From a virus (Duplodnaviria; Caudoviricetes), in IMG/VR virus record IMGVR_UViG_3300032038_009890, positions 1-64,000 of that record: 64,000 nt of DNA; one strand, given 5' to 3'. The notes under the pieces were generated by a model. It searched no databases, had not been told where the DNA came from, and saw only the letters and a list, made by a program, of their open reading frames with translations. This document shows, piece by piece, positions 243 through 59,798 of this stretch; position 1 is the first letter of the stretch, and every line of letters begins with the position of its first letter. The translations under genes were made by a program, and so were the position numbers.

Positions 243-410
243 ATGTCAAGAAGTTATATAAAGGATTGGGATATTGACTGGTCAGAATACCAATCTGAAG
301 ATGATGAAAAAGTATATGAATTATACTCGCAATTTGAGAAGTCTGATAAATAGCGTAAACTAAAACGCTAGACAAAATTGCGTAATTATGAGGGTTATAT
401 AGAAGAATAA
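243..410 (+). CDS. hypothetical protein, 55 aa (TAG read as Gln)
   Basis: AAGGAG RBS before ATG243; two in-frame TAG; TAA at 408-410 followed by a terminator. Confidence 0.65.
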
Positions 411-416
411 ATATAT

Positions 417-442
417 GGCCCCGAGTATATTGGGGCCTTTTT
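417..442 (+). terminator. intrinsic terminator
   Basis: GGCCCCGA-gtata-TTGGGGCC hairpin followed by TTTTT. Confidence 0.75.
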
Positions 443-462
443 GATTAAAAGGAGAAAATATA

Positions 463-972
463 ATGAAAATTGATGAATTTATAAAAGAAACTAACAGCGA
501 ATATAATCATGCATATGAGATGCATGTTAAAAATATATATGTTCCTATTGAGAAAAAACAAGCGCGCGCAAAGACTATCGTGCAGAGCGCATGTTATATT
601 ACCACGGAAGACGGTGGAAAGCAGTATCACGTTAATTCTGTTGCGATTTACGTGCTTACTGGGTTGACCTATGTTGATCTTTATACAGATATTGAGCGTG
701 GTGAGAATATCTTGGAAGACTTTAACAAGCTAAACGAAATTTGTTTTTTCGAAGATATGAAGAATTTTATTAGTGAAAGAGAGCGTGAAGAATTTGAAAT
801 GGTCCTAGATATGGAACTTGAAGATTTGGAAAAGAATGAGTACGAATTAGGCGCCTTTATCCGAAACCAAGTAGAAAGATTTGCGACGCTATTTGGCACT
901 GCTCTTGCGCCCGTGCTTGAAAATATAGACCTTGACAAGGTCAAAGAACAGTTAGAAGAATATGTAAAATAA
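463..972 (+). CDS. hypothetical phage protein, possibly a tail assembly chaperone
   Basis: AAGGAG RBS; 169-aa acidic helical protein two genes upstream of the tape measure gene; function inferred from position only. Confidence 0.6.
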   Translation: MKIDEFIKETNSEYNHAYEMHVKNIYVPIEKKQARAKTIVQSACYITTEDGGKQYHVNSVAIYVLTGLTYVDLYTDIERGENILEDFNKLNEICFFEDMKNFISEREREEFEMVLDMELEDLEKNEYELGAFIRNQVERFATLFGTALAPVLENIDLDKVKEQLEEYVK

Positions 973-1024
973 AAGATAAATGAATCGGCGTAACTAAACG
1001 CCGTGGAAAGGAAGGTGATTAGTT

Positions 1025-1696
1025 ATGCCGAAAGAAAAAGATCCAAAGAAGATAAAGAAATAGATGAAACAATGCATGAAAGATATGGATGCACTTGCGA
1101 AAGATACCAATAAGCAGATAATGAAGGAGATCAAAAAACTGTTTAATACGTTAAGAAAAGATGTTATTGGTGATTCTTGGCATCTGACTAGTGATACATG
1201 GTACGGAAGTTATATTCCTGATAGATATCATAGACGGTTTAGTTATTTTAATGTTCCTTATATCGAACCAGATTATGATAATGTAGATTATGGTTGGGGC
1301 TTTGATCCTGATCGTATTAAGCAATGGCACAGAGTACAGGACAGACTTGGAGATTCTAAAGGTAAAGAATATCTTTATGATTTAGCCTTTGAGCATGGAT
1401 GGCACGGTGGTGCGCGAAGTGGTCCTCCAGATTATGCAGGGCAACAACATCCGCCAATAAATAGGCCTAATACTGGTACACCATACTATAGAAGACCTCC
1501 TAAAGAGCCTAATAGATATCGTTTCTGGGGTTAGAAAGCCGCGCAAACATTTGCTATTAGACCGAAGTATGAACAAGATTTCGAGGAAAAGAAGAAACCA
1601 ATTATTGAATATCATCAAAAAGAATTTTTAAAAAAAGGAGCAATTATTATAAAAGAGTTTAAACGGTTAAAAGCCGAATTAAATAAGATTTCTTAA
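1025..1696 (+). CDS. hypothetical tail-region protein, 223 aa (TAG=Gln)
   Basis: AAGGTGA RBS before ATG1025; in frame with ORF 1064..1534 across TAGs at 1061 and 1532; ends TAA 1694-1696 next to the TMP RBS. Confidence 0.75.
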
Positions 1697-1710
1697 AGGG
1701 GTGAGGGAAA

Positions 1711-4700
1711 ATGCCTAAAGTAACACATCATAGTAGCGGCGAAGGTGTTGATATTTCTGTTTTATTACAAATGATGCAAGATGATATCGATGGTTCTAGC
1801 GCTAGTAGTAAAGGTGGTAAAGTAGATACAAAAGCGTTAAAAGACGCCATTAAAGGAATAAAAGAAGTTGGAGAAGCGGCAACTGCATCCGCGAAGGACG
1901 TAGATGAACTAGCTGAAGCAACGAAAAAATTTGAAGATACTGTAAAGAGATTCAATAAGCGATCTTCTTCGGAGTCTTTTGCAAAGACATGGTATACTGA
2001 TATTGACACAGCGAAGAAGGCGCTTACAGAAACAATAAAGGAATTCAAGGATTCTGATTTCTCGCTTGGAGATTTGGGAGATAAAGGAAATAAGGATTTA
2101 AAGAAGCAGATTCTTAATCTTAGCAATGTGTATCTTGCGCTTGGAGGAAATCTGGATGAGATACATGCTAAAATGAAATCATTTTATGATGAGCTTTCCT
2201 CACGTTCTGGAGATCTTGGTATTAATGTATCGACAGACCAGTTTAAACAATTTTTTGCTGAATTGGAGTCTCTTCCAGAAGAATATCAGAATCAGGTTAA
2301 TAGCTTGGGGAAACATATAAGCGAGGCCTTGCACGATGCTTCTGAGGAGGCAGTAAAGGCTACGGCTAAGATGAAGAAGGAAGTTTCCGACGCACTCGAC
2401 GAGCCTGTGATATCTTTGGATGATATTATTAATCTGGAGAGTGGTGACAAGGCTATAGGCAAGGTAAAGAAATATATCGGACAGCTTAAAAAGGCCATTG
2501 AGAAAGAGCAGACAAGTCTTACGAAGTATACCTTTAATCTTTCTAAATATGGCGCAAATAGCGATAGTTTAATGTCTCTCGATGAATCTAAAATAACCAA
2601 GATACATGATGATCTTCAAAAGGCAATGAATAAATATGGAAATAATTTAAAGGTTAAAATGGGAGACGGCAATGGAAATGATACGATATTGTCTCTTAGG
2701 GAAGCTTTTAGAAAATTAAATCCTGCCTTTTCTGATAAGCTTGGAAATGATAGTAAAATGTCCATGAAGGATATTACAAAGATTATGGAGTTTTCGTCAA
2801 AGAATCTTGATGAGTTAAATGAGAAACTAACACACACATCAAAGCTTTTAGATGATATCACAGAAAAGCGAAATCAGTTTGCTAATGTTGAGGAGATAGC
2901 AGAGAAGAAAGAGACGAAAAAGAGAGAACCAAAGAAAAAGGACGAAAAAAAGGTAAAAGAAGCATATGTTTCTAAGGTACTTAAAGGTACAGAAGAAAGT
3001 GCTAGGGGTGAAGCCAAGAAGGCCGCAGAAGCATTCTTTGAAGAGTTTAAGAAAGCGCTCCAAGCAGAGAAGAAGGATGTGAAATATCTTTATGAGTCTT
3101 TATTTGGTGAAGGACTGGACGCAAGTGTAAAAAATGCCAGAAAAGCAATGTTTGGTCAATTAACTGGCACACAATATACAAAGGTATCTGATGTAAAGAA
3201 CAATCTTCGTAATCTGGATGCAGACGCTTACGATAGTTATCTTAATGGAGTTTCTTCCGAAAAGACACAAAGGGAAACAGAAAAGAAAGTAGAAAAGAAT
3301 ATTGAAACATATAGAAAGAAGCTGAAGACTATTCTTGAAAGACCAAATACCAAAAAGAATTTGGATAAATCTGATATGCCAGAAGAGCTTTGGATTCCTA
3401 ATATTGCAAAGCAGATAGAAAGTCAGATCACAGATCAGGAAGATTCTATAGAGGCGGCGATTAAGGCTTTTCATGAAAGGGTAAAAGAGCTTACTGGGAA
3501 ATTTTTTGTTAAGGGTGATGGCGCTCTTGCAAAAGGTGAGTGGCTGACAGAGCAGGAGTATGAACTCAAAAGGCAACAAGCCGAAGAGAAAAAGAAGCAA
3601 CGTAAAGAGGCGGATGCAGAACAATTAAAGAAACAACAGAAAAAAGACCAAGCCGCCAATAATAATGAAAATGAGACAATTGATTCGCAAACTGCCCAAG
3701 CGACGGCGGATGAACATAAAGCTATTGCAAGCGAGAGAAAATCCCAAGCGGAGCAAGCAGAAGCAGAAAATGAGATTCTTGAACAAAAAGAAAAGAAACT
3801 GAAGTCACAACAACAGAAAGCAGAACAGGCCGAGGAAAACGCAGAAGAACAAGAAAAAAGTGCAGAGGAAGAACGCAAGAGGGCTGAAGCAGAAAAAGAG
3901 GCGGCAAGAAAAGAGAGAGAAAAACAACAGAAAGAAGCGGACGAACAAAATAATGGAGAGAATTCACAAAAACAATCGAAGCCGAAAGATACAACAACTA
4001 CTAAAACTGTTACAAGAGAAAGAGCAGATGGAAAGATTGTCTCGGAACAAAAGCAAGAGACTACTGGCGGGGCAACTACTGGGGGCAATGCAGGAGAGGC
4101 CGCGTCTAAAGTAAGTCAAGGCCTTACCAATGCAGGAGCTTCAGCGAGTACTGCTACATAGGGCGTGAATCAGCTTACTGAATCATTAACCGAGGCGGGG
4201 AAGGCCGCTGAAAATATTCAGATTAAGATTGATGTAGATAAGCTTATAGAGAAAACAAAGGGAAAACTGGCAGAGCTTACAAAAGGAACCCCCAGTGAGA
4301 ATATAGCAAATCAGTACTACAGTAAGAACTTAGACAAACAAAAGACATTTCTTAATTTTAGGAATGATTTCGCAACGGCATTTGATAAAGCTGTCGATTC
4401 TGTTGATTCAGCGCAAGGCATAATTAAGCTTGTTGGTGTCTTCGATAAATTAAAAAATAATTCTTTTGAAGTAGCCGACGCTATTAAAATGGTGAATGAT
4501 ATTGCTAATTCTGTACCATAGACTGTTGTCAAAAAAGAAGTTAGTAAGGAAGAGATTGTCAAAAAGGTTCAAAAGTTAAAAGAGTTATATGATGAAGTAG
4601 ACAATGAGCTATACAATAGAGAAAGTAATACATTCGTTTCTGAAAGCTCTGAATTATACGACAATGATGTAATTGAAAAATTGCTTAAAACCTTGGAAAG

Positions 4701-7700
4701 CTTTTCCGCAGAAGAATTAAAAGCTATTGGGGTTAATGATGATTTTGCAGATAGTCTATCGGAGACAATAAGCCAATACAGGGAGTTTAGTGAAGATTCG
4801 GTTAATTTTGAGCCATCTAACTGGGAGGATTTAACTCAACAGCTATTAGATGTTTACAAATATGTGGACGCAATTGTTAGCAAAGTGGAAATTCCTTCTG
4901 TAACGGTAGAAGCCCCGGTTGAAGCAGTAAATGAAGGTGTAACAGAGGGTGCAGACGAAGCAAAAGAAAAAGTTGAAGAAGTAAATGATAGCATAGATAG
5001 TGCTGTAGATTCTGCTAAGGAAAAGATCGAAACAATTCAGGATGTGATTCTTGAATTATTTGATGCTCTTGCCGATGGAATTGAGAACAATGATTATATT
5101 AGTGATCTATTCCCAGATTTTGGTGATGATAAAGCATCGATAAAAGAATTTATAGAATTATTTAATGAATTATCAGAAGCCGAGTTAAAGTCGGTTGTTG
5201 ATGATCCAAGTAAATTTATAGATTCTATCAAATCTCAATTTGAAGATTTAAAGTCGTTATATGATCAGATATCTAATGAAAAAGACGATAATGTCGCCTC
5301 TAGATTAGACGATACTTTTAGATCAAAATTCGAAAATTTTATAACATTTGCAGGAGAACAGTTTGACGTACTTGATGTACAAGAACTAAGCTATGATAAC
5401 ACTGCTGAAAATGCAGAGGAAAATAAGGAAGCATTAGATAATCAGGCTGAATCCCAAGAACATTTGAATGAAACAGAAGAGGCCGAGCCTGACAATTCTG
5501 AAAAGGTTGAGAAAGAGACAAAATCGAGAGAGGAATTGATACAGATTCTCCGGGAACAAGAAGATGCTTTGGCGGATTTACAGGCCAGAAAAGAAGCCTT
5601 AGATAAAGTATCAAAAACTATTGAAAAATATGCCACGCGGGATGAGGACGGTAATATTGATACAGAATGGCTATTAACACAAGCGGAAAATCATTTTAAC
5701 AGTGATAAAGATAATGCATTCGATAAAGCAGTTGCTTATTATGGAAAATATGCTGACGAATTTATAAAGCAAAATGGTGAGGAGTTTAGATAGGCGCTTG
5801 GGCTTGTTGGATATGAGGGTCGTGAAGAGCAAGATTCTGCCGAGATGTTGGAATTGTATGAGGAAATTATTAATGCAGATGAAACCATTCGTGATCTTGA
5901 AGAGCAAATCAGAGCTAATCGTGAAAAACTTGCGAAAATGCCCGCACCAGAGAAAAAGGAGCCAAAGAAAACTGATGAAGCCGCTGAACCTAAGAGGGCC
6001 GAGGAAACCGCAGATAAAGAACTAACTCGGTTGGAAAAGCTCCAGAAGGAAATTGATGAAACTAATGAAAAATATAGTGAGATGTTAGACTATTTAGAGC
6101 GTATTGATAATGCAAACAAAAAGATTGATTCAAAGATATCTGGAACAGGTAGTGAGAAATTAGCTTCTTTATTACACGGAACTAACGTAACATTTTCGGA
6201 GGGCGATGCCGAAGTTGCATCATTATTCTATAATAAATATTTAAAGCAAGCTCAGAAAATGGGCATTAATCCTACACATATATTTGACGATGAGGGTGCA
6301 GATATTTCAGATAATCTCATTAGAAAATATGATGAATTAAATCAAATGAAGCAAAAAGCAGAAGAATTACATAGAAAACTTATAGCACTGACACAAGAAT
6401 TAAGCAAAGCAAAGACTGAAGAAGCTGAAGCTACTAGAAAGACAACAAAAGAAACTAAAGACAATAGTGATGCAGTAGAAGAAAATACTGATAAGAAAAA
6501 GAAGAATAACGAGACAACTGCTTCTAGTGGGTCTGGTTCTGGCGTAAGCAAAAAGACTAGCGGAGGAAGCAGATCGTCAGGAAATGAACCAACAGATTTA
6601 GCCAATACTTTGTTTCCGACAAAACATGATATAGAGAATGAGAAAAAGAGAATTAGGAAAGCGTCGGGGGATAAAACTGATCGTTATTTAACAATAGAAG
6701 ACCCTTCACAGGATTTTGTTAATGATGTCACAAAGGAATTACAGCTTTTAATTCTTTATATGGAAGAACTTGGTGGCACAACTGATAAAGTTAAAGAGAA
6801 TTATGAAAGGTTTGTAAAAGAAGTAAGTGTTAAACCTAATATTAAAGGCCTAGATGAGTTAAGACAAGAGTTAGAGGATACTGGTAAATCTGCCATAGAG
6901 GAACTACAGGCATTTACACAAGCTAAGAAGTCAGCAGGACAAGGTGGTTCCGCTCCCGCTAAGCCAAAGCCCAGACCTGCTTCTGCACCAAGCGCCACTC
7001 CTGTATCAGCGCCTAGCTCCCCTGCTCAACCATCTGTTGTTCCTGGTGCCGTAGGCGAAGAAAATGCGGCCTTACAAGAACTCGACAAAGTGTTGAGAAG
7101 CACTATTCCAGAAGCTGTGCGCATTAAAGATGCCGCATTTATAGAAGAAAAAGATATAGTTACCGGGGCTATTGATAATGAGATTAGCGCTGTCAAGGTT
7201 CTGGAAAAGGAGCTTTCAGAAGGTGTGCCGAAGGCAATTACTCAACAAAAAGATGCTTTGAAGGAAAATACTGAAGAGGTTTCTCAGGCTGTTGTCGAAC
7301 CACAAGTAACTGCCGAACCAGAAGCGCAGGTTTCAGAGGATTATGAAAACCTTAGAGGATTAATAGCACAAGTAAGTGCCGAGATAGAGAAGTTGCGTGA
7401 GCAATTTAATTCTCTTGAGTCTAATGCAGGATTGAAAGCTGAGCAAGAACAATTAGTAAAGCTTATTGATATCTTAATGAATCAGATTCCCGGCGCAATT
7501 ATCATTAAGAATCGTGCTTTTATGAGCGAGAAAGAAGTTGTCTCTAGTGTTGTGAATTCTGAGGTTGAGTCTTTTAAGGTATTTGAGAATAAATTAACTC
7601 AGACTATTCCAGAAGCCATTGACAAAAAGAATGAAGCTTTTAAAGAAGAGGTTAGCGTTGTTAAGCAAACTGCGCAAGATGAGGCTGATGCTTTGGATCC

Positions 7701-10700
7701 TCTTGAACAAGTAATCCAAAGTATTAGTAGTAGCTTAAACTTTGATGTAAGCGTGTCAGGTACTGGAAGTCTTAGCAATGTAATAAGAGATATTAGGAGT
7801 ACTCTTGATTCAAAAACAATAGATTTATTTACTCATGAACTTGAAATATTATTAAGTGAAATTCAGCACTTTATGAGTGTAAACCTACGTAATAATAATA
7901 TTTTAACTGTGATTAATAGCATTGTTGCAAAGACAGATGATTTGCAGAGATTGATAGATATACTTCAGCATTCTGAGGCGCAAATTAATGCGGTTAATAA
8001 TGCGGTAAACAATGCTACTCCGAGCGCTCAGCCCTCTTCTGTAGCCGCGAATACCTCTTCTACCCCGCGCAAAACGTTTAAGCCGACTAAAAAACAAATT
8101 GCCGATGCGCAGAAACAGAAGAGAGATCAGAGGAAGCAAATCGAGGATCAAGAGAAGGCGAATAATGCAAGTAGATATGATGCGCTGACCAAGTCTCTTG
8201 ATGCTCTTACCGAGGCCCGTACCAAATATAATATTGCACTCGCCGAGTCTATAAAACGTGGAGATACTCTGCAAGCCCGCGAAATACTTTTAAAAGATGC
8301 AGAAGACAAAAAGACTGAAGCTATTAATAATGCAAAACAAGCAATGCTTGAACTATATAAGATGCAAAAAGCGGGGCAGATTACTCAGGAACAGTTTAAT
8401 AAAGCAATGACATCTTATAAAAAAGATGGAAGCCCGAAGTCATAGAGTGATCTCCAGAAAGCTAAAGATCAACAAAAGAAAGCACAAGATAAACAACTTA
8501 AACAGGAATGGGAAGCGGGTAAACAGGAATATTTAAAGAACCAGATTGCTTATTATAATGAATTGACGGAAGCTGTTAAACGTTATGTAGACATTATGAA
8601 GAGAGCAAAAGCAGGTAGACCAGAAGCAGACGATGCAACGCAATTACCTATTATTGAGGAAAAGATTAATCGGATGACGTAGGATACAGATGGCTACTAT
8701 TATGATTCTGATATGGAAGATAGGGCTTTGAAAGATCTTTATAATCTTGATGATATACTTGATCAAGTACAGCAGAAGATGGATAGAGCAAATACAATAA
8801 AATTCCAAGATAGTATGAAAAAAGCGCAGGACGCTATTTAGAAGTATTATGAATCTGCTGTAAAATTAAGAGACCTTTAGGAAGAGGCGGAAAAGAACGG
8901 TAGGAGTACTGATACAAAACCCATACGTAATGCTAGAAAGGCTATGCTGAAGAATAAACAAGATGCTGATAATTTGCTTGCAGGTGTAAATGGTATTGAC
9001 AGCTTCTAGGACGGTTCTGAAGCAAGGGCAAATTATGCTTCTGCCGAGTCTATATTTTCAAGGTATGGTGATGTTAAGTCACTGTTTGATGTGGTCGCAG
9101 ATCCCTCGAATGCGGTTGAGGTATATCATACTCTTATTAAGTATGCAGAAGAATATGTGCGTTTGACTACGAAGCAAGATTCTGGACAGACATTAATGCA
9201 CTCCGAGGTTGAAGAGATCACAAAGCTTAATGAATTGTACGATAATCTGAACAGAAAAACGACCTAGTATGCAAACAATTTACAGGGAGAAGATACGAAT
9301 CTCCCGCAAGAACTTGCTAATAGGTTAAGTGAAGCAAAACAAACCTAGGCCCAAAATCGTTTTGAAAATGTTGGTAAGAACCTTGACAAATTTAATTCTT
9401 ATGAAGATAATGCAAATCTGACTGTATGGTTGAATGATGTAAATCAAAGATATGATGATTTGAAGCAGAAGATAGATAGTGTTAACTGGTCTGGGACTAG
9501 TCAGACCGATCTTGATCAGGCCAAAGACGCTTTGCGAGAACTTAGTGATATGGAGAAAGAAGTTTCGTCTGCTTTGTCGAATGATAGATTCGTAAATATT
9601 ACTGATAAGCAGAAGAACACACTTTCTAGGCGAATGGCTGAATGGGCCTCGAATAACTCTGCGGCAAAGCACTCTATTGAGCAGATAAACGAATTACAGC
9701 AGAAATTACAAAACATAGATGATAAAGGTTCTCTTGAAGAGATTAGCAACGAGTTTGAGGCAATTAAGAGAAGAGCTTATGAGAGCGGTGAAGCGGGAAA
9801 GAGCTTTGGAGATAAGCTGAAAACGAGCTTTGGAAATCTTGGAAGATATCTCCTTTCGTTTGTAAGTATATATAAAGTAATAGACGCTATTAAACAAGGA
9901 GTATCTATTGTAAAAGAGCTTGACAGTGCGATGACAAATTTACGAAAAGTTATCGACGATACTGATGATTCTTTTGCAAACTTTTCTAAAGAGGCATTTC
10001 AAATTGCCGAAAGGCTTGGTTCTACTGCTTCATCGATAATTGATGCGGCAACAGAATGGGGACGATTAGGTTATAATCTTGAAGATAGCGCTAAATTAGG
10101 AGAGGCTTCAGTTATATATGCTAACGTTGGTGATATGGATGCCACTACTGCTTCAAATGATCTAGTTTCTGCTTTGAAAGCATATAATAAAGATGCTAGT
10201 GAAGCAATGCACGTAGTTGATATTTTAAATGAAATCGGTAAACATAAATTGCCGAATATAAAGATAGCTATATCGGTTAAAAGCTAATTAATAGTCGAGA
10301 CCGAGCAAAGACATATAATAAATATTATGTATGCGTAGAGACTGTAATGGTTTATATGGCAACATATAAATCTTCGCTATCCTCCATATAGGAGAATATT
10401 CAGTCCGTACTCACGATATATATATATATAAAACGTGAGAATATGCCAGAAATGACATGTCGCTAAATATTATAGTTTAGTAGTAACAACAAGAATAATT
10501 ATGCTGTTTCTAGCGCACAGCTTGGTGAAATCTTGGAAAAGGCTTCTTCAACATTAGCTCTTTCTGGAGATGGAATTGAGCAAGCTGTTGCAATGGGTGC
10601 GGCAATGCAAGCAATCGTGCAAGATGCTTCAGTAGTTGGACAAACATTAAAAGTTGTAGATTTAAGGCTTCGTGGAAGTAAAGTTGCTCTGGAAGAAGCA

Positions 10701-33620: not shown

Positions 33621-33628
33621 TAATTATG

Positions 33629-33659
33629 TGGGGGGTCTCTTAGGAGGCTCCCTATTTTT
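33629..33659 (+). terminator. intrinsic terminator or stem-loop after TMP
   Basis: TGGGGGGTCTC-ttag-GAGGCTCCCTA followed by TTTTT. Confidence 0.65.
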
Positions 33660-33680
33660 AAAGAAAGGGGGAAATAAAAC

Positions 33681-39127: not shown

Positions 39128-39139
39128 GGAGGTGATATA

Positions 39140-40228: not shown

Positions 40229-40257
40229 ATTATTTATGAGAAAAAGGAGAATTAATT

Positions 40258-40662
40258 ATGAAAGCAACTATATCTTATTATGTAGCAATTAGTCTGTTAA
40301 ACGAATTAAATAAGTATTCATTCATTACTGGTAAACTTGGGTTTGCCATTTCAAGGACCAAGAATGTATTAAGGAACGAAGTCTAGATTTTTAATGAAGA
40401 AAGAAATAAATTATTGCAGAAATACGGTAAACTAGACGAAAACGGTAATTATTTTGTTGACGAAAAAGATGAAAACTTTGCTGCATTTAATGATGAAATT
40501 ATTCCTCTTGTAGAAACAAAATTTGAAATGAATATATATCAGGTTACGCAAGAAGAATTTGATAAAGCAGATATTTATAATGAGTCGTTGTCTGTCGAGG
40601 ATTATGATAGATTACAGGCTTTATTTATAGAACGAGTAGTAAAATAGGAAGAGACGGTCTAA
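40258..40662 (+). CDS. hypothetical tail-associated protein, 134 aa (TAG=Gln)
   Basis: AAGGAG RBS; frame open through two TAGs to TAA. Confidence 0.7.
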
Positions 40663-40693
40663 GTCAGTTGCCTAAAAGTGAGGTGAGTTGACA

Positions 40694-40903
40694 ATGGCAG
40701 AAATTTTTAATCCGCAAAATGCGAATCAGCTTTCATAGCTAACTGAGATAGATAACACCAAAAGTTTTATCGTTGTAGACAAAGCAGATAACAAAGGATA
40801 TCTTTTGGATTATAACAAATTAGCTGATGTGCTGTTTAGTAAATTATTTAGCAACACAATGCAAGAAGATTCTTTAAAATTTTATTTTATAGAAGACGAG
40901 TGA
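40694..40903 (+). CDS. hypothetical protein, 69 aa (TAG=Gln)
   Basis: GAGGTG RBS; one TAG at codon 15; TGA stop; fills the gap between neighbours. Confidence 0.65.
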
Positions 40904-40925
40904 TTATGAAGGGAGGTGAATTTTA

Positions 40926-46184: not shown

Positions 46185-46381
46185 TGAACTGGACAAGAAT
46201 TAAGAATGATACTCCCCTACTCTTTTCTTTGGGCGATGACGCTGATGTGATTGGTGTGTTGTAGCATACCTATGGCGTGAAGATTTTGGAGGATTGTGGC
46301 GAGTTGTATTATGTATTCTCGCCGGATTTTAATAGGAATGGATATGTTTTAAAAGAAGATGTGATAGAAACACATTTGTGA
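46184..46381 (+). CDS. small protein, possibly SH3b-like, 65 aa (TAG=Gln)
   Basis: TAATG overlap with the fibre gene; VIGVL...VKIL...YYV...GYV pattern. Confidence 0.55.
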
Positions 46382-46395
46382 ATATAGGGAGAATT

Positions 46396-47331
46396 ATGGA
46401 AAATAATTATAAAATTTATGCTTATGTAAATAAAATAAACGGAAAGATTTATATTGGTCAAACAAAACAATCTTTAAATGCTAGAGCTGGGAAAGAAGGA
46501 AAAGGATATAGGTAGTGTGTACTATTTTATAACGCTATTTCGAAATATGGATTTACCAATTTTATACCTATAGTACTAATAGAAGGATTAAATAAAGATA
46601 CAGCTGATTATTTAGAAATATCATTAATCGAAGAATTTAATTCAACTAATCCAGATTATGGATATAATATCTCAAAAGGAGGTCAATACTCTACAAACGG
46701 AATTGATATAAGTGGTCAAAGATTTGGAAAATTAATTGCTAGACACATAGTTGATGATCCAAGAAGAGGAAGATATTGGTATTGTGATTGTGATTGTGGA
46801 GGACATTCTATTGTTAGATAGGAACATTTGCGAGATGGCACAACTACTGCATGCACAGATTGCACGTTAAATAGTTTACATGTTATTCCTAACAAAATCG
46901 AAATAATTGATGATAATACTATTAAAGTTTTAATGACAGATGGGTCTTTTTTAATCGATTCAGAAACATATAATAATATAAAGTAGTACAGATGGTATAG
47001 GTCGGGTGAATATGGAGTTTCTTCAACTACGGAGGAAAGAAAATTGTTGTTGAAATATTTATTTCCAAGCATAAATAGGAATAATATTTCCAGATATGTT
47101 AAATTTAAAGATAATAACAGATTTAATTATTGCAAGGATAATTTATATGTAGAAATACCAAAAAATGCTTCGAAAAATGATTGGTATTTATTTTTGAACG
47201 AAAATAATACTTATATTCATTTTATTAGGCATTCGTCAAACAGACCTTGGCGTAATGTTAAATTAAACCAATCGTTTCATACTTATAATGAAGCAAAATT
47301 AGCTAGAAAGGAGTGTGATATAGATGGCTAA
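46396..47331 (+). CDS. free-standing GIY-YIG homing endonuclease with a Cys-rich C-terminal module, 311 aa (TAG=Gln)
   Basis: KIYAYVNKINGKIYIGQT...FYNAISKYG...E...GYN, then DISGQRFGKL...WYCDCDCG; three TAG; TAA stop overlaps the endolysin start. Confidence 0.85.
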
Positions 47332-48880
47332 TATTTCAGCTGAACAATGGCAAATATTATTAAATATCTTAGGAGCCGTAGAAACTGGCGGACAGATTTA
47401 TGGTCAAAGAGATTATGGTGATTATACCGAAGCTTATACGAATAATATTGCAGAGAACTCTATTACTATCGGTGCTTATTAGGAATTTAGTTCTCTTGCT
47501 AAAGGACTTCTTTAGGAAATTAAAGATAAATATCCAGATGTTTTTGTTCAATATGATAATGCAGGTATTGCTAATGATTTACAAAAGTTTTCTTGGGTTG
47601 GTTATAATCCAAGCAAATCTTCTGCAAAAGCAAAAGCAATCGTTAATATAATTAACTCTACTGAAGGGCGCAAGGTACAAGATGATAGATTCATCCGATA
47701 GATGAAAGAACATATTGCGCTAGGCGAAAAGTTAGGTGTAAATGATGTGGATGCTCTCTTTGAAATCTGTAATATTTCACACTAGGGCGGTGATGGTGCT
47801 GTTAAGCGAATTATCTCCAAAACTTAGAAGCCTTATACTTTAGACCATATTTATCAAGCACTTTGTACGGATAATGTTCCAAATCAAGTTGGAACCTACA
47901 AAAATCGTCAATCAAAAGTTTATCAGTGGCTCAAGTAGTATATGCCAAAGCAATAGACTCGGCAGACTGTCGTATACAACATCAATCGTGGAACTAGCGT
48001 AGATGATGCACTTAACGTGGCTCGTGGATGGCTTGGACTTTCAAAAGCAAATGGTTCTCATCGAGTAATTATAGATACTTATAACTCTTATCTTCCACAT
48101 CCAAGATCCTACGCTGTAACCTATACAGACGACTATTGTGCTACAACCATCAGTGCAATCTTCGTAAAACTCAATGCTGTCAATTTAATAGGTAATATCG
48201 AATGTTCTGTAGAACGCATGATTGAAGATTGCTTTAAGCCAATCGGGATTTGGATAGAAGATGAATCTAAAAATCTTCCGCAAAAGGGAGACATTATTTG
48301 TTTCAATTGGGACAGCAATTAGCCAAACTCAGATAATTAGGGTTGGGCAGATCATGTTGGTATCATTGAGGATGTTTCTAATGGAATTATCACTACTATA
48401 GAAGGCAATACTTCTGGTGGTGTCGTTGCTCGTAAGCAATATCCTATAAACTACAGTTTTATCAGGGGTTTCGCTCGTCCGAAATATGGCTCAGATTCCT
48501 CGACAACTCCTACCATAGAAGACATGCCTGTATAGCCCACTATAGAGATCTTAGACCCGGTTCCCACTCCTACTCAACAAACTGTCCGGCCCACTCCCGC
48601 AACGCCGTCTCAGACCCCTTCTGGCTCGTCTACGGTGACTTCTAGTGGCCTGAGTAAGGAGAGGAAATTTTGGGGAGTATGCGTGGCAGATGCACTTAAT
48701 GTGAGGAAATATGCGGGGAAAGAATATTCAATTCTTCAGAGTATTCCTATGATTTATTATGGTCAAGAAGTTGAAGTACTAGATACCGTAAAAGCAAATG
48801 ATGGAAAGGAATGGTACTATATTCGGATTAACGGGACAACTTACGGCTTCGCATCTGCCGAGTACATCGTAAAGAAATGA
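47324..48880 (+). CDS. endolysin: lysozyme-like domain + CHAP + SH3b, 518 aa (TAG=Gln)
   Basis: AAGGAG RBS; N-terminal AVETGG...TIGAYQ...HQGG; CHAP YCAT...GDIICF...DHVGI...TIEGN; Pro/Thr linker; SH3b ALNVR...WYYIRI...GF; ten in-frame TAG. Confidence 0.88.
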
Positions 48881-48941
48881 CAAAGAAGAAAGTATGAAAA
48901 AGAAAAGGTAACTATGTCATAACGAAGAAGGTGGTGATGGA

Positions 48942-49493
48942 ATGCAGGAAGTCGAAGAGGTCGTTGAAATGGCGACTACTCAAGGTAACAATAATATTAT
49001 TGTAACTATTATAGTATTGCTTATAGCAATTGTATTTGTTGCTGAACACATAATGAAATTTAGAGAGATTTTTGGAATTCGTACCAAATGGGATGATCAT
49101 GAACAATAGCAAACAAAAGAAATATTAGAGCTTAAATAGGAAGTCGTAAAAATTAAGCAAGAGGTTGAAGATATCAAAAGCACTAATAAACATGATACAA
49201 ATAAACGAATTGAATTTGAAGAATGCGTGACTAAGTCACTGAATACAATAAAAAATGATATGCTTGACGAAAAGATTTAGCGCATGAGGTCTGAAATACT
49301 AGACTTTGCGGCAGGTCTGAAGATAAAAGATTACAACGAAGAAAGCTTCTCACATATTTTTGATGTTTATTCTAGGTATAACAAGGTTATCCGTGAGAAT
49401 AATATGACTAATGGGTATGTTGATCTTAATATGGATAAAATTAGAAATGACTATGCTCTAAGACATAATAACACCCAATATGTGGAAGAGTGA
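48942..49493 (+). CDS. membrane-anchored lysis-cassette protein (holin-like), 183 aa (TAG=Gln)
   Basis: One N-terminal TM helix, a coiled coil and an RSEILDFA...Y...NG domain; directly after the endolysin. Confidence 0.7.
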
Positions 49494-49496
49494 TAA

Positions 49497-49522
49497 AGGG
49501 GGCAGTAGTAATACTGTCCCTT
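49497..49522 (+). terminator. stem-loop, possible terminator
   Basis: AAGGGGGCAGTA-gtaa-TACTGTCCCTT; U-tract is weak. Confidence 0.5.
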
Positions 49523-49543
49523 GATATAAAGGATGTGATATAA

Positions 49544-49789
49544 ATGAGTGAAAAGAAAAAGATAAAGTTTACCTCACTGATTGTCGCCCTTGTTCTTATT
49601 GAGGCGGCAATTCTTACGGGTATATATGTCTGGGTATTCTGTACTTATGGACATGTTCCAGACACACTTATAGTCGCAACTTTTGGATTCCTTGGCACAG
49701 AATTAGGGATTTGCGGGGGTGTAACCATGAATGGAAACAAGTATGATTATTTAAATAATAGTATTCCACCACAAGGAGGTGTTGGATAA
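49544..49789 (+). CDS. small two-TM membrane protein (holin-like)
   Basis: Basic N-terminus and two hydrophobic helices; in the lysis cassette. Confidence 0.7.
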   Translation: MSEKKKIKFTSLIVALVLIEAAILTGIYVWVFCTYGHVPDTLIVATFGFLGTELGICGGVTMNGNKYDYLNNSIPPQGGVG

Positions 49790-50098
49790 ATGGAAAATGG
49801 TATGATTCTCTTAGCAATTACAACTGCACTTACTTCTCTCGCTACGGAAGGCGTAAAAAAGACCTTACATCTTTCTTCTGATAAGGTTTCGTACAATATT
49901 CTTGTACTTGTAATTTCAGTCATCAGTGCTTTGCTTGTTGGATTTGGATATATTATTTTAGCAGATATTGTGATTACTGCTAAAGTCGTAGTTTATCTTG
50001 TTGCTTTGACGCTTATGTCCGCACTTGCTGCAAGTACGAGTTACGACAAATTAATACAAACGCTTAAACAATTAGATTTTTTGAAGAATCAAAAATAA
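49790..50098 (+). CDS. holin (about three TM)
   Basis: 102 aa; TEGVKK and SYDKLIQTLKQ motifs; three hydrophobic segments. Confidence 0.75.
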   Translation: MENGMILLAITTALTSLATEGVKKTLHLSSDKVSYNILVLVISVISALLVGFGYIILADIVITAKVVVYLVALTLMSALAASTSYDKLIQTLKQLDFLKNQK

Positions 50099-50154
50099 AG
50101 GAGATAAAATGGATAAACAGATTTTTAACGGAACAACCAATTAGAGATCATATT

Positions 50155-51450
50155 ATGAATAAATATTTGATTGAAAATGTAAATAGTGACGATGTTGATT
50201 TTGATCATGTGAATGATGATTTACCGAGGTATGGTGAAGGGTTTGATTATAATGGAGAGAAGTCGAATTGGTGTGTATATGCACATATAAATAAGACAAA
50301 TGAAAAAATATATATTGGGATTAGTTCAAATTTAAAACATAGATGGAGTAATGGTGGAAACAAATATTGTGGCTGTGATGCGTTTTATAACGCTATACAA
50401 AAATATGGATTTGATGGGTTTAAACATATTGTCATAATAAATGGACTAACAGAATCTATGGCTCGTCTTATAGAGGATGATTTAATCAAAAAGTATAATA
50501 CTCTGGTTTGGAAAGAAGATGGCAATGGATATAATATAAGCTTTGAATATTTGTTTGGTCGTAAAAAAGAAAAAGGAATGGAATTACATAGGTACAAATA
50601 TTATCAATACGATTTAAATGGTATTTATATTCAATCATTTGATAGTTTAGTATAGATTAATAATTTATTTAATGTTAGTTTTGGAAATAAATGCGTTAAG
50701 CGTTGCTTAGAAAGAGAACATCATTTTGCTTTTGGTTTTTTATGGTCAACTACATTTTATGAATAGCTTGATCCTTTCAGGCCAACTGATATAAAATTCT
50801 GCGATGAATATCATAAACCAACGCATGATAAATACGGTCAAATTGTACAGTTATCTATTGATGGTAATTTAGTAAAAACATATAATAATGTATATCATTA
50901 TACTTTCGATTCTATAATCATGGATTCAGTTTTAAAATGTTGCAGAAATATTAAGCATACATATAATGGTTATATATGGATGTTTATAAGCGATTATTCA
51001 AATCAAGATATTCTGTTTAATAGAATTTAGTTAGCTAGTGATGAATATAAAAAATTTTCCAATAATCTTGTACGTTCTCAATCAAAAGCTGTTTTAGCCA
51101 GAAATATAAGCAACAATAACACTATTCAATTTGATAGTATATCTGATGCGTCTAGACAAACCGGATATCCTCAACAGTCTATTTCAAATGCATGTAAAAA
51201 CAACTCAATTTATAAAGGATATTCTTGGTCGTTTTTAAATAATTCATCGTCAAAGATATCAAAAAGGCGTGTAGTTCAAATTGATATTCGCAGTAATGAA
51301 ATAATTAATATATTTGATAGTATTACTGATGCTAATAATTACATAAAAGTTAGCAAAGCTTCCTCTGAAATAAGTGCTTGTTGTAGAGGAAAGCGAAAAA
51401 CATCATATGGATATATATGGAAATATTATGAAGATATTATAAAGGAGTGA
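50155..51450 (+). CDS. free-standing GIY-YIG homing endonuclease with four NUMOD1-like repeats, 431 aa (TAG=Gln)
   Basis: CVYAHINKTNEKIYIG...FYNAIQKYG...GYN, then four Q...FDS...C...G[FY]xW modules; three TAG; TGA stop. Confidence 0.85.
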
Positions 51451-51455
51451 TAAGT

Positions 51456-51977
51456 ATGAAACTTAAAGCAACCCCCAATATTAAAGGGAGCATTGTAGAA
51501 ACTACAGTGTCCATAGATGATTTTGGTTCTTCAGAATATTCCGCAGAGGAAGAAAAGGAATTGTTCGAAGACTACTCGATGATATTAGACTACGGAAAGT
51601 TGCTGTTTTCTAGGTGGGTAACCGTAGATGGCCACAAAAACCCAGTAATCGTAGAAGCTCCTCAAGAGCAAGAGCCAACTAACGAACCTCCAACGGAACC
51701 CACAGAAGAAACTACTGGGCCAGATAACATTGTACTTGCAATGCCGATTGGTGAATCTTACGAACTTGATGCAGATTTTGAACTTCATTACGCTGTAGAT
51801 GTGCGCGCTCTTGGTGACCAGTATAAGATGTTTAAAAATATCAAGGATAACGTATGTTTAGCTAAGGCTATGTGTTTAGTTTTTGAAGATTGTATTATTT
51901 CCTATATCAAAGATCAGTTTGAAATTGCCAAGACTCATAAAGACGATTTTGAAACTGTTCGTTATTATGAGATTTAA
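51456..51977 (+). CDS. hypothetical protein, 173 aa
   Basis: AAGGAG RBS favours ATG51456; no TAG; TAA stop. Confidence 0.75.
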   Translation: MKLKATPNIKGSIVETTVSIDDFGSSEYSAEEEKELFEDYSMILDYGKLLFSRWVTVDGHKNPVIVEAPQEQEPTNEPPTEPTEETTGPDNIVLAMPIGESYELDADFELHYAVDVRALGDQYKMFKNIKDNVCLAKAMCLVFEDCIISYIKDQFEIAKTHKDDFETVRYYEI

Positions 51978-52010
51978 TTACCCTTATGTATCAGAAAGAA
52001 GGTGATATAA

Positions 52011-52988
52011 TTGGATTACCATTACACAGATTATATAATTACCCAAGAAGGAACAAACTTAACTACGGATTCAGCCATCAAACTTTAGAAGATGGAGAAT
52101 AAAGTCACCCGTTTCATTTTTAAGCTAGAGGATTGGCTTCCTGAAACTGCACGTCTTTATGTTGCATTTCTCAATCCAGAAACAAAGCGCTATCATTATG
52201 AGCCTTTGCTTAATAATGGAGAGGATTACTACTATGTTGTAGGAACGAAGCTATCTTATTATCCTAGTAAACACAAAATGTTGCTTATTGGCGTAACTCC
52301 TTCGTTTATTTTAGATGACAATGTTATTTTGGATATAACGAATACTGTATATGTATCAAGAGAATTCAATAAAATAGTTGTCATTGATAATTTCATTTCC
52401 GATGAAGCAAGAGAGCTTTCATATCCAAATATAGAGTATGCCCTCGATGATTTTATGAGCATTTACAATACAAATATAATGCTTTCTATTTAGACGGCAG
52501 ATGATGCGACTAAATGTGATGAAGACATTAAACGTTGCGAGGAAATTCTTGTTACATGCACCGAAATTCAAGAAGAATGCGATGCTGATGTAGGAACATG
52601 CTCTAACGCTGTAATCACTTGTACAGAGTTAGAAGAACAGTGCCGACAAGATAATGAAGAAGCCAGTGAGATACTTGCATAGAATAGAGAAACATTAGTT
52701 TCTTGTAATACCATTCTTAATTAGGCACAACAGAGTTTTGATTCATGTATTGTTCAGGCTCAAAACGCAGCTAACTCGGCATCTTCAGCCAATGCTGCTT
52801 CTAACAATGCTAGTTCTACACTTACACAATGCAGAAATATGCTTACTCAATGCCAACAAGTTTTAACACAAGTAAATCAAATGGTGGCTACTCTACAAAC
52901 GAATTATGACACATATCTTTCTCAAATGAGATAGGAATATGAAACTATGATGGAAAATCTTAGAAATGCTGGAGGAGGTGAGCCGTAA
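52011..52988 (+). CDS. BppU-like baseplate/fibre protein with a Cys-heptad coiled coil, 325 aa (TAG=Gln)
   Basis: AAGGTG RBS and TTG start; beta-rich N-terminus (ENKVTRFIF); heptad register continues through the TAGs; TAATG overlap with the next gene. Confidence 0.75.
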
Positions 52989-53326
52989 TGTATGTTATCA
53001 ATGAAATATCTAAACATCAAACTGATATCTCAATTATTAAAGGAGATACATTTAGAGAATTAATTCGTATTTCTGACGAAGCTAGGCTCACCTATGTTCC
53101 TGAAGCCGCAGATAAAATCATTTTCTATGTATATAATAAATATACTGACGAAAAACCTTTGTTTGAAAAAGAAATACCATATAATTCAATGGTGTTATAG
53201 TTATCAGCAAAGGAAACTAGTAAGATGAAATTAGGTAAGTATGTGTATAAAATTATACTAAACAGAAGAAATGGTGATAAAGATACGTATTTACATGGTA
53301 GTTTTAACGTTGAGGGGGTGATTTAA
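52988..53326 (+). CDS. small Ig-like baseplate/fibre adaptor, 112 aa (TAG=Gln)
   Basis: ISIIKGDT...ETSKMKLGKYVY...DT...GSFNV pattern; one TAG; TAA stop. Confidence 0.7.
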
Positions 53327-53902
53327 TTGGTAAATTCTGTAATAACTGGTAATAAGACACTAGGTGGCACTACTATGGGAGCATGGAATTAGGGCCTAGA
53401 TGCCTACAGTTTGGCAGTGCGCTATCAAAATTATAAGGGAACACTGCTTGAATGGTTGGATTCTCTCAAAGCCATCTCTCCCACATTCTCAGAACCAGTC
53501 ATAGATACCGAAAACGGCACAACGAGCTTCACCATGAATGACGAAAATGGGGGACATACTATCACTCTCCGCAACGGTCTAGATATCAAAGTAGAATCCA
53601 CAGAAGTCACAGAAGATGGTACTCTAGTAACCTTTAACGATGGCACGACAGTCCTTGTCGGCAACGGTCAAAAGGGTGATCAAGGCGATCCCGGCAGAGA
53701 AATAATCTTCCGCAACGTAGATAACACTCTCTACTGGCGTTACGCAACAGATGATCCAGAGTGGAAACAACTTGCAGACCTCATGCAAATTATGGAGTCA
53801 GTATATACTGCTCATCCGCCTTTTATCTATGTGGATGAACTACCAGACCCTGCGGATGCAATAGAGGGTGTAGAATACAGATTAAGGAATGGAGGTGATT
53901 AA
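53327..53902 (+). CDS. fibre-associated protein with a short collagen-like stretch, 191 aa (TAG=Gln)
   Basis: GGGGTG RBS and TTG start; GLDAYSLAV...GTLLEWLDSLK motif; GQKGDQGDPG. Confidence 0.7.
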
Positions 53903-53904
53903 TC

Positions 53905-55449
53905 TTGGCAAAATCTTATAAATCATATATGCTCTCAGCGGATAAAAAGTCATGGGTCCCGCTGTTTGATGGTGAAAGCTATAATACTCTGAGCGACACT
54001 CCTATTAAGAATCTTTACGGGCAAGCCGAAGAAGTTTATGTAGATATCGGTGCTCTGAACGAGGGCAAGTATCGTATTTCTGGTTACTATAAAGTAGATG
54101 ATAATTCCGAACTGCAAAACGCAGAGGATGTCCCTGTTTTTGTAAATGTCTATACTGATAGTACAACTCCTGAGAAAAAATATGCGGTCTTTGAGAATGT
54201 TAGTTCTGATAGTTTCGGGCAGACTATATATACTATTGAAAATTCCGCCATTACAGATACTCATCATGTCGGCGCAGATGATACTGCCATCCCTGAGATT
54301 CATGAAGATATAAATAGTTTAGATACGCATCTGAGCGAACTAAATAATAATTTTAATAGTTCTGTGGCAGATATTAACAGTACTATCGCAAGTAACTATC
54401 AAGAACTTTCTAGTGAGATAGAACAGTCTGCATCAGAAATCAACGAAATATTAGATAGTCAAGTTACTAGACTGAATGGAAAAATAGAAAGTGAAACCTT
54501 TTCTGTATCAGAAGCATTAAGCAGTGAAGTTACCAGATTAGAAGATAAAATAGATAGCGAAACATCTTTCGTAAGTGATATGCTTACTAGCGAAGTTACC
54601 AGACTTGATAGCACTCTCACAGATCATTCTGAGTCACTTTCAGATATAGATAGTGAAATAGCTGTAATTGACTCTCGTCTTGATGGGCATGATACATCTA
54701 TCTCAGAAATCAATGAGGATATAGCCCTGCTCAATAATACCGAAGAAACAGAAGGTTCTGTTCGCTAGATTGCAAAATCCTACGCCGATGATACAGTAGA
54801 AACCACAACAATCACTCTGGCAGTCGCTGACCAACCTGATCTCAATGACTCTACCACATATGTCCTTTCTCAAGGCGGGGCCGAAATAGGTCGTGTACAT
54901 ATTGCAAAAGACCTCGTAGCTACTTAGGGCGAGTTAGTTACAGAAGATGCAAGTGGTAATTCTGGTATGTTTATCAGGATGACCGTAGCTAATGGAACGC
55001 CTTTTTATATCCCTGTTGATGAGTTAATTGACACTTATCAAGGTTCTGGTGATGTAGGTACTGTATCCAGTGGCATCAGTATTAACGTAACCAATGGTGT
55101 TGTCTCTGCAACTATTGTTTCTTTAGACGGTACTAAACTTGATGCGGGAAGTGTAGGTTTTGATAAGCTTGCACAGGCCGTATAGAGTAAAATCAATAGC
55201 ATTGATGATGTTTATGACGAGTTAATGGGAAATGCATAGACAGATACTGTAACCTCAAAAACAATAGAAGGTCTGGTAAAGAAAACAGATATGACTAGCA
55301 ACACGCTCTCTAATTTGGATACTTATGTTGGAACAATTCCGCAAGAAAGTGATGCTACTACTGTAGTTGATTACATAGATGAAAAGAAAAATGAAACTAT
55401 AGATAATCTTAAACAATATTTGGTTTGGCATAGGTTCACAGAATCTTAA
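53905..55449 (+). CDS. fibre-like structural protein with a coiled-coil stalk, 514 aa (TAG=Gln)
   Basis: GGAGGTG RBS; 20-aa S[QE]VTRL repeats; single frame to TAA 55447-55449. Confidence 0.75.
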
Positions 55450-57052: not shown

Positions 57053-57253
57053 TTAACTAGTTATTAATTTACATATATACTCTATCAATACCACAGGCCA
57101 GATAAGATCATGCGAATACCCATAAGCCAAAACAAGTAAGTAGCTTTCAATAGGTTCGTCTGAATCGAATCCTATTAGTTTGCATATCTCATACTGTTTC
57201 ACAAGACTTGCCCAAAAATAAAACGCCCAGTATATTATAAGCATATTTTTCAT
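57053..57253 (-). CDS. small membrane hypothetical protein
   Basis: 66 aa hydrophobic; ATGA overlap with gmk. Confidence 0.6.
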   Translation of the reverse strand: MKNMLIIYWAFYFWASLVKQYEICKLIGFDSDEPIESYLLVLAYGYSHDLIWPVVLIEYICKLITS

Positions 57254-59223: not shown

Positions 59224-59225
59224 AA

Positions 59226-59789: not shown

Positions 59790-59798
59790 ATATTCTCC

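What the first reader, a model, noticed from the sequence alone, without database searches (positions are those of the whole stretch)
243..55449. Late genes are written in a recoded genetic code (TAG = Gln)
Seen: the + strand ORF fragments fall in common frames separated only by TAG. Reading through gives tightly packed genes with RBSs, ATGA/TAATG overlaps and TAA/TGA ends. Gln is supported internally: a duplicated domain reads FSPLL-CAG-TEN in TMP (22933-35) and FSPLL-TAG-IEN in the hub (35528-30). TAG also sits where Gln fits the motif (AGKNRAQ, IKQTAD, TIGAYQ, HQGG). Established: code-15 phages are known from gut and rumen metagenomes. Inference: a CUA suppressor tRNA and/or release-factor gene lies outside this window.
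Basis: partly seen in the sequence, partly recalled or inferred. Interest (0 to 1): 0.85.

Follow-up and report, generated by a model that had tools for sequence, protein, structure and literature searches.

The report
TAG-recoded phage with intron-split suppressor tRNA
This gut-type bacterial virus reads the stop codon TAG as glutamine in its virion and lysis genes, which is already known for many gut phages; the one less ordinary detail is that the tRNA that reads TAG is cut in two by a self-splicing intron and so is missed by standard tRNA searches.

Summary
Confirmed. The window is the tail-lysis arm of a 217-kb, probably temperate, Firmicutes-type phage. Its + strand genes (24 frames, 17,611 codons) hold 148 in-frame TAGs and no internal TAA or TGA. 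Over 72 TAG sites with homologues, Gln beats Glu by 28 and Tyr/Leu by about 120 log-likelihood units. Early genes and the integrase avoid TAG. This is the known code-15 late-gene recoding. No release factor or GlnRS gene was found. The predicted suppressor exists outside the window (genome 177,847-178,131): a tRNA whose CUA anticodon is split at 35/36 by a 197-nt group I intron. An intron-free twin in another recoded phage fixes the junction. Five other sequences carry the same arrangement; the four tested are TAG-recoded phages in which default ARAGORN finds no CUA tRNA. Close relatives use intron-free suppressors, and these genomes are intron-rich, so a tolerated mobile intron is likelier than a splicing switch. 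I found no paper describing it; this scan has already noted it in this genome and on other DNA. It may explain part of the published 60% of TAG-recoded phages with no detectable suppressor. Nothing here is shown at RNA or protein level.

The parts
243..1696 (+). Three small late genes (243-410, 463-972, 1025-1696) before the tape measure gene; 2, 0 and 2 TAGs
1711..33620 (+). Tape measure protein gene, about 10,000 codons, in exons separated by four insertions; 55 TAGs in the three long frames = 9% of its Gln codons
   Evidence: PHROG TMP hit; pieces contiguous in relatives G004 and G001; counts
10907..11757 (+). Two tandem group I introns around a 4-nt exon in the tape measure gene
   Evidence: RF00028 37.6 and 37.5 bits, below the family cut-off; spliced frame matches intron-free G004
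30566..30952 (+). Group I intron in the 3' part of the tape measure gene (approximate bounds of the Rfam match)
   Evidence: RF00028 33.8 bits, E 5.7e-7; flanks contiguous in G001
33681..46381 (+). Distal tail block (33681, 34637, 39140, 40258, 40688, 40926, 46184); TAG is 25-39% of Gln codons in the six genes that also hold CAA or CAG (46184 has one TAG only)
   Evidence: 39140-40228 hits tail/virion PHROGs; 33681, 34637 and 40926 have no family hit, so 'hub' and 'fibre' are positional guesses
46378..47331 (+). GIY-YIG type homing endonuclease, 3 TAGs
47324..48880 (+). Endolysin (CHAP-type), 11 TAGs after the SD-supported start; four conserved columns are Gln in homologues (80/99, 50/88, 31/35, 69/84)
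48942..55449 (+). End of the late operon: second GIY-YIG endonuclease (50155-51450) and uncharacterised genes; 17 TAGs
55811..57007 (-). Tyrosine integrase, 0 TAG, TAA stop; convergent boundary of the recoded block, where GC skew changes sign
57053..64000 (-). Start of the non-recoded early arm (continues to about 151 kb of the genome). The decoding tRNA and the first half of the late block lie outside the window: see Noticed in passing (L006:14847-15131) and the full report

Best explanation
The phage infects a standard-code Firmicute. Early, replication and integration genes are written so that they translate without a code change (TAG nearly absent; a few small early genes seem to end in it). 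At the border of the late block the phage transcribes a tRNA precursor; a group I intron splices itself out of the anticodon and leaves a CUA suppressor, which a host enzyme loads with Gln (host GlnRS, or GluRS plus GatCAB). The suppressor competes with host RF1 at TAG, and virion and lysis proteins become full length only once it has built up. SHOWN at DNA level: TAG frames, Gln as the residue, early/late split, the tRNA, the intron and its splice register, absence of RF and GlnRS genes. INFERRED: splicing in vivo, who charges the tRNA, the timing role. The intron is most likely a tolerated mobile element of the phage tRNA-Leu(UAA) intron pool that was retargeted to the CUA loop and sits in an essential RNA, not a purpose-built switch.
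For: Frames and density (whole genome 0.55 to 0.77, against 0.70 to 0.74 in the non-recoded relative G004). Residue: 72 TAG sites in 29 genes, majority residue Q at 22 (31%) against 82 of 239 (34%) for CAA/CAG sites; log-likelihood below Gln: Glu -28, Lys -39, Ser -62, Tyr -118, Leu -122, Trp -130; non-recoded relatives read through those columns with sense codons. Late versus early: TAG is 18.5% of Gln codons in late genes and 3.6% in early and middle ones (p 3e-22; the early figure is inflated by crude start calls). tRNA: spliced product is 76/89 identical to intron-free L358, with no mismatch in the 40 nt across the junction; the four close portal relatives all carry a CUA tRNA near the head genes, the eight standard-code ones show none there. 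Tolerated intron: relatives G001, G002, L009 and G009 have intron-free suppressors; G000, G003 and G006 hold 4, 9 and 11 RF00028 matches; the CUA intron of L072 is about 70% identical to a Leu(UAA) intron (L100), differing in the guide GGA versus GAG; in the tree CUA introns are not separated from the Leu introns.
Against: No RNA or protein data for this phage. The tRNA body is odd for Gln: long variable arm and A73, where Leu/Tyr enzymes might bind (own knowledge), although the protein columns exclude Leu and Tyr as the main reading. P10 pairing is weak in this intron compared with the other five. A second, degenerate candidate (genome 123,565-123,639, - strand; 8-nt loop containing TCTA, Arg-like body) cannot be excluded as an amber reader. 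How RF1 competition is overcome over about 55 TAGs in one tape measure gene is unexplained.
Confidence: 0.8

Rival explanations
1. Splicing-gated code switch: the intron is kept because its splicing (dependent on GTP, Mg or a phage or host factor) sets when the suppressor appears, and so times lysis or the exit from lysogeny.
For: The gene sits at the border between TAG-free and TAG-rich + strand genes, right after a TAG-containing antirepressor. The arrangement recurs in six sequences with unlike tRNA bodies. It is the only well-formed CUA tRNA found in each of five genomes.
Against: Close recoded relatives do without the intron; the same genomes carry many introns in other genes; the same site is used by introns in clostridial tRNA-Tyr(GUA) (at least 140 distinct copies), where no code switch is known.
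Confidence: 0.12
2. The whole cell uses TAG = Gln (recoded host, or host suppressor), and the phage tRNA is only auxiliary.
For: TAG is almost never a stop in long early genes (1 of 77 on the minus arm).
Against: Sense TAG is strongly confined to late genes; about six SD-led early genes end in TAG at plausible ends, one as TAG-TAA; human-gut relatives use the standard code; Borges et al. predict standard-code hosts for such phages.
Confidence: 0.04
3. TAG is read as another or a mixed residue (Tyr, Leu, Ser or Glu), as the class II tRNA body with A73 might suggest.
For: 21-nt variable arm and A73; only about 31% of TAG sites have Q as majority residue.
Against: CAA/CAG sites give the same 34%; likelihood margins of 28 to 122 log units; reciprocal test: relatives' TAGs fall on our CAA/CAG 28 times, on Tyr once.
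Confidence: 0.03
4. The TAGs are nonsense mutations of a decayed prophage, or assembly errors.
For: IMG/VR labels the record a provirus; no raw reads of this strain were available.
Against: Only TAG, never TAA or TGA, interrupts 17,611 codons, with no frame breaks other than introns; independent relatives from other samples show the same pattern, including shared TAG columns.
Confidence: 0.01

Closest known systems
TAG-recoded (code 15) gut phages: Lak, crAss-like and the gemstone-named clades of Borges et al. (bioRxiv 10.1101/2021.08.26.457843; Devoto et al., 10.1101/356790; proteomic proof in Peters et al., PMC9523058)
   Same: [quoted passage not shown]
   Different: Suppressor is intron-split; no RF2 (Lak phages have one); 217-kb phage with integrase and MrpR-like repressor domain, while the recoded prophages analysed in that paper are about 24 kb; its portal matches only Firmicutes phages at 25-28%. 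Assignment to a named clade was not tested.
[quoted passage not shown]
   Same: About 200 nt, ORF-less, U(-1) in a G.U pair of P1, terminal G, inside the anticodon loop; closest sequences are phage Leu(UAA) introns.
   Different: Host gene is an amber suppressor in a phage, with the site at 35/36 and guide GGA(C/G). That survey covered bacterial and archaeal genomes, and its table is an image I could not read, so I cannot say whether it lists a CUA type.
Theta ribozymes beside suppressor tRNAs of code-15 gut phages (bioRxiv 10.1101/2023.06.13.544163)
   Same: A catalytic RNA that acts in maturing the suppressor tRNA, proposed as a code-switch control.
   Different: Theta ribozymes are small HDV-like RNAs cutting the 3' trailer; here a splicing ribozyme lies inside the anticodon. 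That paper does not mention introns.
Lak phage tRNA 'introns' (Devoto et al.)
   Same: Insertions in phage tRNA genes of a recoded phage.
   Different: Reported in Phe, Gly, Thr and Tyr tRNAs, not in the suppressor.

Membership tests
Code-15 (TAG = Gln) recoded phages | Coding density rises by more than 5% under code 15 in a genome over 100 kb | tested here: met
   ORF cover 0.549 to 0.772; control G004 0.700 to 0.736. ORF cover, not Prodigal.
Code-15 (TAG = Gln) recoded phages | TAG aligns with Gln in homologues | tested here: met
Code-15 (TAG = Gln) recoded phages | Recoded codons concentrated in structural and lysis genes; integrase avoids them | tested here: met
   both tyrosine recombinases (55811-57007; genome 132,787-133,800) have 0 TAG
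Code-15 (TAG = Gln) recoded phages | Phage CUA suppressor tRNA (seen in about 40% of members) | tested here: met
   genome 177,847-178,131, after splicing
Code-15 (TAG = Gln) recoded phages | Phage RF2 or GlnRS (optional; rare among members) | tested here: not met
   PF00472 and PF00749 not found in the genome
Code-15 (TAG = Gln) recoded phages | Peptides with Gln at TAG | not testable with these tools
   no proteome
Crassvirales or Lak phages | Portal related to those of Bacteroidota-infecting crAss-like or Lak phages | tested here: not met
   the 72 tblastn hits are named Bacillus, Lactococcus, Staphylococcus, Mammaliicoccus, Brevibacillus, Alicyclobacillus phages, apart from 3 with generic names
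Agate / Sapphire / Jade clades of Borges et al. | Placement in their terminase tree | not tested
   reference sequences not on hand
Group I intron in a tRNA anticodon loop | Catalytic core (P3-P9) | tested here: met
   RF00028 53.5 bits, cut-off 50, E 7e-14
Group I intron in a tRNA anticodon loop | U before the 5' splice site paired with G in P1, and terminal G | tested here: met
   read from the sequence: U35.G, C34-G, U33-A with guide GGA in all six CUA cases; introns end in G
Group I intron in a tRNA anticodon loop | Joined exons give a normal tRNA; intron-free alleles exist | tested here: met
   ARAGORN calls the joined form; twin L358
Group I intron in a tRNA anticodon loop | Subgroup IC3 | not tested
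   no subgroup models available
Group I intron in a tRNA anticodon loop | Self-splicing activity | not testable with these tools
   needs RNA or a bench assay
Canonical bacterial tRNA-Gln body (identity elements from own knowledge) | Weak 1-72 pair, G2-C71, G3-C70, U35 | tested here: met
   A1xC72, G2-C71, G3-C70, U35; weak 1-72 pair also in L009, L010, L020, L072, L358
Canonical bacterial tRNA-Gln body (identity elements from own knowledge) | G73 and a short variable loop | tested here: not met
   A73 and a 21-nt arm with a 4-bp stem; twin L358 has G73 and the same long arm

The most novel reading that the evidence does not exclude
Group I splicing of the suppressor's anticodon is a regulated step that turns on the phage's late genetic code, so that a ribozyme gates the switch between lysogeny or early growth and virion production; and intron-split suppressors, including long-arm Gln tRNAs, account for a real share of recoded phages thought to lack a suppressor.
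Probability: 0.12. Interest if true: 0.8.

Novelty: new variant of a known kind. Interest (0 to 1): 0.42.

Why it matters
The recoding itself adds one more code-15 phage to hundreds. The hidden tRNA bears on a stated open point: Borges et al. found TAG suppressors in only 40% of TAG-recoded genomes with tRNAscan-SE 2.0, a tool that by its authors' words was not designed to detect group I introns (PMC8450103). Here five recoded genomes have no CUA tRNA by default ARAGORN and each has an intron-split one, so part of the gap is probably a detection artefact and can be measured by re-scanning. The long-arm, mismatch-1:72 suppressor that appears to carry Gln is also a natural test case for how host synthetases are borrowed for code change.

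Tried and rejected
Pattern scans were mostly chance hits and were capped; scans were capped too, so counts of intron-split suppressors are lower bounds and give no frequency. In one search my forced register miscalled Leu(UAA) introns as TTA/ATA; those calls were dropped. One row of the intron tree (G007phage_Tyr) was mis-extracted and is not an intron; it pulls on the G000 branch, and the tree neither shows nor rejects one origin of the CUA introns (p-AU 0.47). An off-by-one splice gave CTC; that join lacks the U and the terminal G and was corrected. The idea that the suppressor intron came from clostridial tRNA-Tyr introns was not supported: those form their own group. The idea that the 3' three-way junction is specific to suppressor tRNAs was weakened by copies elsewhere, including a non-recoded relative. 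The high-GC stretch at 132-152 kb looked like host DNA but holds small SD-led genes of phage type. Promoter scan near the tRNA: count at chance level. Paper searches found no report of a group I intron in a phage amber suppressor; the library lacks most subscription papers. From memory only: 35/36 introns have been reported in Patescibacteria tRNA-Asn/Asp.
Full report
Setting. The window is bases 1-64,000 of a single 217,075-base virus record, 98% complete by CheckV, labelled provirus. It holds the tail and lysis arm on the + strand up to 55,449, then a convergent integrase and the early arm on the - strand; GC skew changes sign at that point. The portal's best named matches are large Firmicutes phages at 25-28% identity, endolysin homologues that carry names come from Eubacteriales and Blautia, and the genome encodes DnaE, DnaB, two tyrosine recombinases and an MrpR-like domain. 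I infer a temperate siphovirus of gut or rumen Clostridia; the host is not identified.

Observation. Reading TAG as sense lifts + strand cover from 0.56 to 0.84, while reading TGA or TAA gives 0.58 and 0.67. Twenty-four frames hold 148 in-frame TAGs in 17,611 codons with no internal TAA or TGA. Genome-wide the gain is 0.55 to 0.77, against 0.70 to 0.74 in a standard-code relative. The recoded block runs from about 176.8 kb through the contig end and on through 1-55.4 kb. Relatives from independent samples show the same pattern, some at the same columns, so errors or decay are excluded.

Which residue. The endolysin has four conserved TAG columns that are Gln in 80/99, 50/88, 31/35 and 69/84 homologues. 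Against eight standard-code relatives, our TAGs align with Gln in 43% of 133 cells, as do CAG (37%) and CAA (39%). Counting each site once, 72 TAG sites in 29 genes (28 sites in the window) favour Gln over Glu by 28 log units, over Ser by 62, Tyr by 118, Leu by 122.

Distribution. TAG makes up 18.5% of Gln codons in late genes and 3.6% in early and middle ones (p 3e-22). Within the late arm it is 9% in the tape measure gene and 35% in the distal tail and lysis genes (p 3e-16); this may reflect a cost of many read-throughs in one very long gene, or the lysis bias reported by Borges et al., and I cannot separate the two. Long early genes end in TAA 39, TGA 37, TAG 1; about six SD-led early genes end in TAG at plausible ends, which suggests, without proof, that TAG is still a stop early.

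Machinery (outside the window, genome coordinates). No RF-1 domain and no Glu/Gln-tRNA synthetase are encoded. Default ARAGORN lists ten tRNAs, none with CUA. With introns allowed, a tRNA appears at 177,847-178,131 (+ strand, L006:14847-15131), at the border of the TAG-free and TAG-rich + strand genes. Its 197-nt insert (177,881-178,077) is a group I intron over the Rfam cut-off. Only the join after U35 and after the terminal G gives both a U at the 5' site and a G at the 3' end with a 7-nt loop; the guide GGA pairs U35.G, C34-G, U33-A. The product reads CU-CUA-AA. An intron-free tRNA in another recoded phage (L358, G009) is 76/89 identical and has no mismatch over 40 nt across the junction. 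The body has a mismatched 1-72 position with G2-C71 and G3-C70, as Gln tRNAs do (own knowledge), but also a long variable arm and A73, which they do not. Since the proteins say Gln and no phage synthetase was found, host charging is inferred.

How general. The four closest portal relatives show in-frame TAGs when pooled (G001 and G003 confirmed singly by density) and all have a CUA tRNA near the head genes: three without an intron (L009, L010, L017) and one with a 231-nt intron at the same site (L020, G003), where P1 and a 5-bp P10 both fit. Pattern scans added L072, L077, L141 and L516. G003, G006, G007 and G008 are TAG-recoded (gain 0.19-0.47) and have no CUA tRNA by default ARAGORN; L516 was not tested, and G007 and G008 are incomplete. 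The tRNA bodies differ, short- and long-armed, so the intron has moved between tRNAs or arrived more than once. Its nearest kin are phage tRNA-Leu(UAA) introns: one pair is about 70% identical and differs in the guide, GAG for CUU versus GGA for UCU. The tree does not resolve one origin. The 35/36 site is also used by introns in tRNA-Tyr(GUA) of gut Clostridia (95 distinct copies from the genome collection, 45 from metagenomes), which suggests that the site is compatible with a working tRNA.

Mechanism and rivals. Best reading (0.8): standard-code host, early genes code-neutral, suppressor made at the start of the late programme, spliced, charged with Gln by the host, competing with RF1; the intron is a tolerated passenger in an intron-rich genome (G000, G003 and G006 have 4, 9 and 11 RF00028 matches). 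A splicing-gated switch is possible (0.12) but close relatives manage without the intron. A recoded host (0.04), another residue (0.03) and artefact (0.01) are unlikely. A degenerate Arg-like tRNA with an 8-nt loop containing TCTA is a caveat to calling the split gene the only amber reader.

Comparison and novelty. It works like, and meets the tested criteria of, the code-15 phages of Borges et al. (10.1101/2021.08.26.457843), validated by proteomics in crAss-like phages (PMC9523058); it is not a crAss-like or Lak phage by portal, and clade placement was not tested. The intron belongs by every DNA-level test to the anticodon-loop group I introns (Williams, 10.1101/2020.01.27.920355). I found no paper on such an intron in a phage amber suppressor. 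I found the tRNA, before consulting earlier notes; the scan's first readers had noted it in this genome (e1-5658016, e1-5658029) and follow-ups describe the same arrangement in another 215-kb phage and T-loop variants elsewhere. Those notes are not independent evidence. Verdict: finding as given is real and known; the intron-split suppressor makes it a new variant. Interest 0.42.

Noticed in passing
L006:14847-15131 (+) (genome 177,847-178,131; intron L006:14881-15077): Core part of this report that lies outside the window: amber-suppressor tRNA whose CUA anticodon is split at 35/36 by a 197-nt ORF-less group I intron; A1xC72, G2-C71, G3-C70, A73, 21-nt variable arm.
   Followed up: yes
L006:13776 to L008:17075 (genome 176,776-217,075, +): First half of the recoded late block, outside the window: antirepressor, portal, head and neck genes, LRR proteins, reverse transcriptase.
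   Followed up: yes
window:1711-33620 (+): One tape measure gene of about 10,000 codons, split by four insertions (three with sub-threshold group I matches; the first, near 10,250-10,500, has no Rfam match) and needing about 55 TAG read-throughs; pieces are contiguous in relatives G004 and G001.
   Followed up: partly
window:10907-11757 (+): Two tandem group I introns around a 4-nt exon; the joined frame matches an intron-free relative.
   Followed up: yes
L006:15133-15210 (genome 178,133-178,210): About 75-nt three-way-junction RNA starting 2-4 nt after the CUA tRNA here and in L009, L010, L017, L020 and L360, whatever the tRNA body; 9 of 25 pairs have double changes; no Rfam match; weaker copies occur elsewhere (G003, L014). 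RAGATH-18-like from memory only; might act in tRNA 3' processing.
   Followed up: partly
L607-L726 (genome collection) and L492-L600: A group I intron at 35/36 of tRNA-Tyr(GUA) is common in uncultured gut Clostridia (at least 140 distinct copies); these genes would be missed by standard tRNA annotation.
   Followed up: partly
L006:13776-14561 (genome 176,776-177,561): P22-type antirepressor with 3 TAGs lies just upstream of the suppressor tRNA, so its full-length product would need the suppressor; an 11/12 sigma-70-like site lies inside it.
   Followed up: no
L004:399-5228 (genome 123.4-128.2 kb, - strand): tRNA island with odd members: inserts in the anticodon arm (124,070-124,208; 125,265-125,378; 127,213-127,331, the last two with ACAGCAA or CAGCAA), an anticodon-armless tRNA (127,844-127,905), an 8-nt-loop Arg-like tRNA (123,565-123,639), several with AGC in the T-loop, around a DUF2828/DUF7788 gene.
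   Followed up: no
L008:14037-15284 (genome 214,037-215,284): Reverse transcriptase with 13 TAGs out of 19 Gln codons, the heaviest TAG use among long genes, next to LRR/DUF6273 genes (likely a diversity-generating retroelement).
   Followed up: no
genome 132-152 kb (L004-L005): Island of 46-55% GC in a 37% genome, packed with small SD-led - strand genes and a second tyrosine recombinase; G001 and G003 have similar high-GC bins. Three of its SD-led genes end in TAG.
   Followed up: partly
genome 91-131 kb (L002-L004): Accessory genes: T4-type RNA ligase and kinase/phosphatase-like domains (possible tRNA repair), three TerD proteins, a P-type cation ATPase, adenylosuccinate synthetase.
   Followed up: no
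window:46378-47331 and 50155-51450: Two free-standing GIY-YIG endonuclease genes in the lysis region, both TAG-recoded.
   Followed up: no
L007:7904-8581 (genome 188,904-189,581): Late gene next to the capsid-position gene with an IF2_N domain and no TAG.
   Followed up: no
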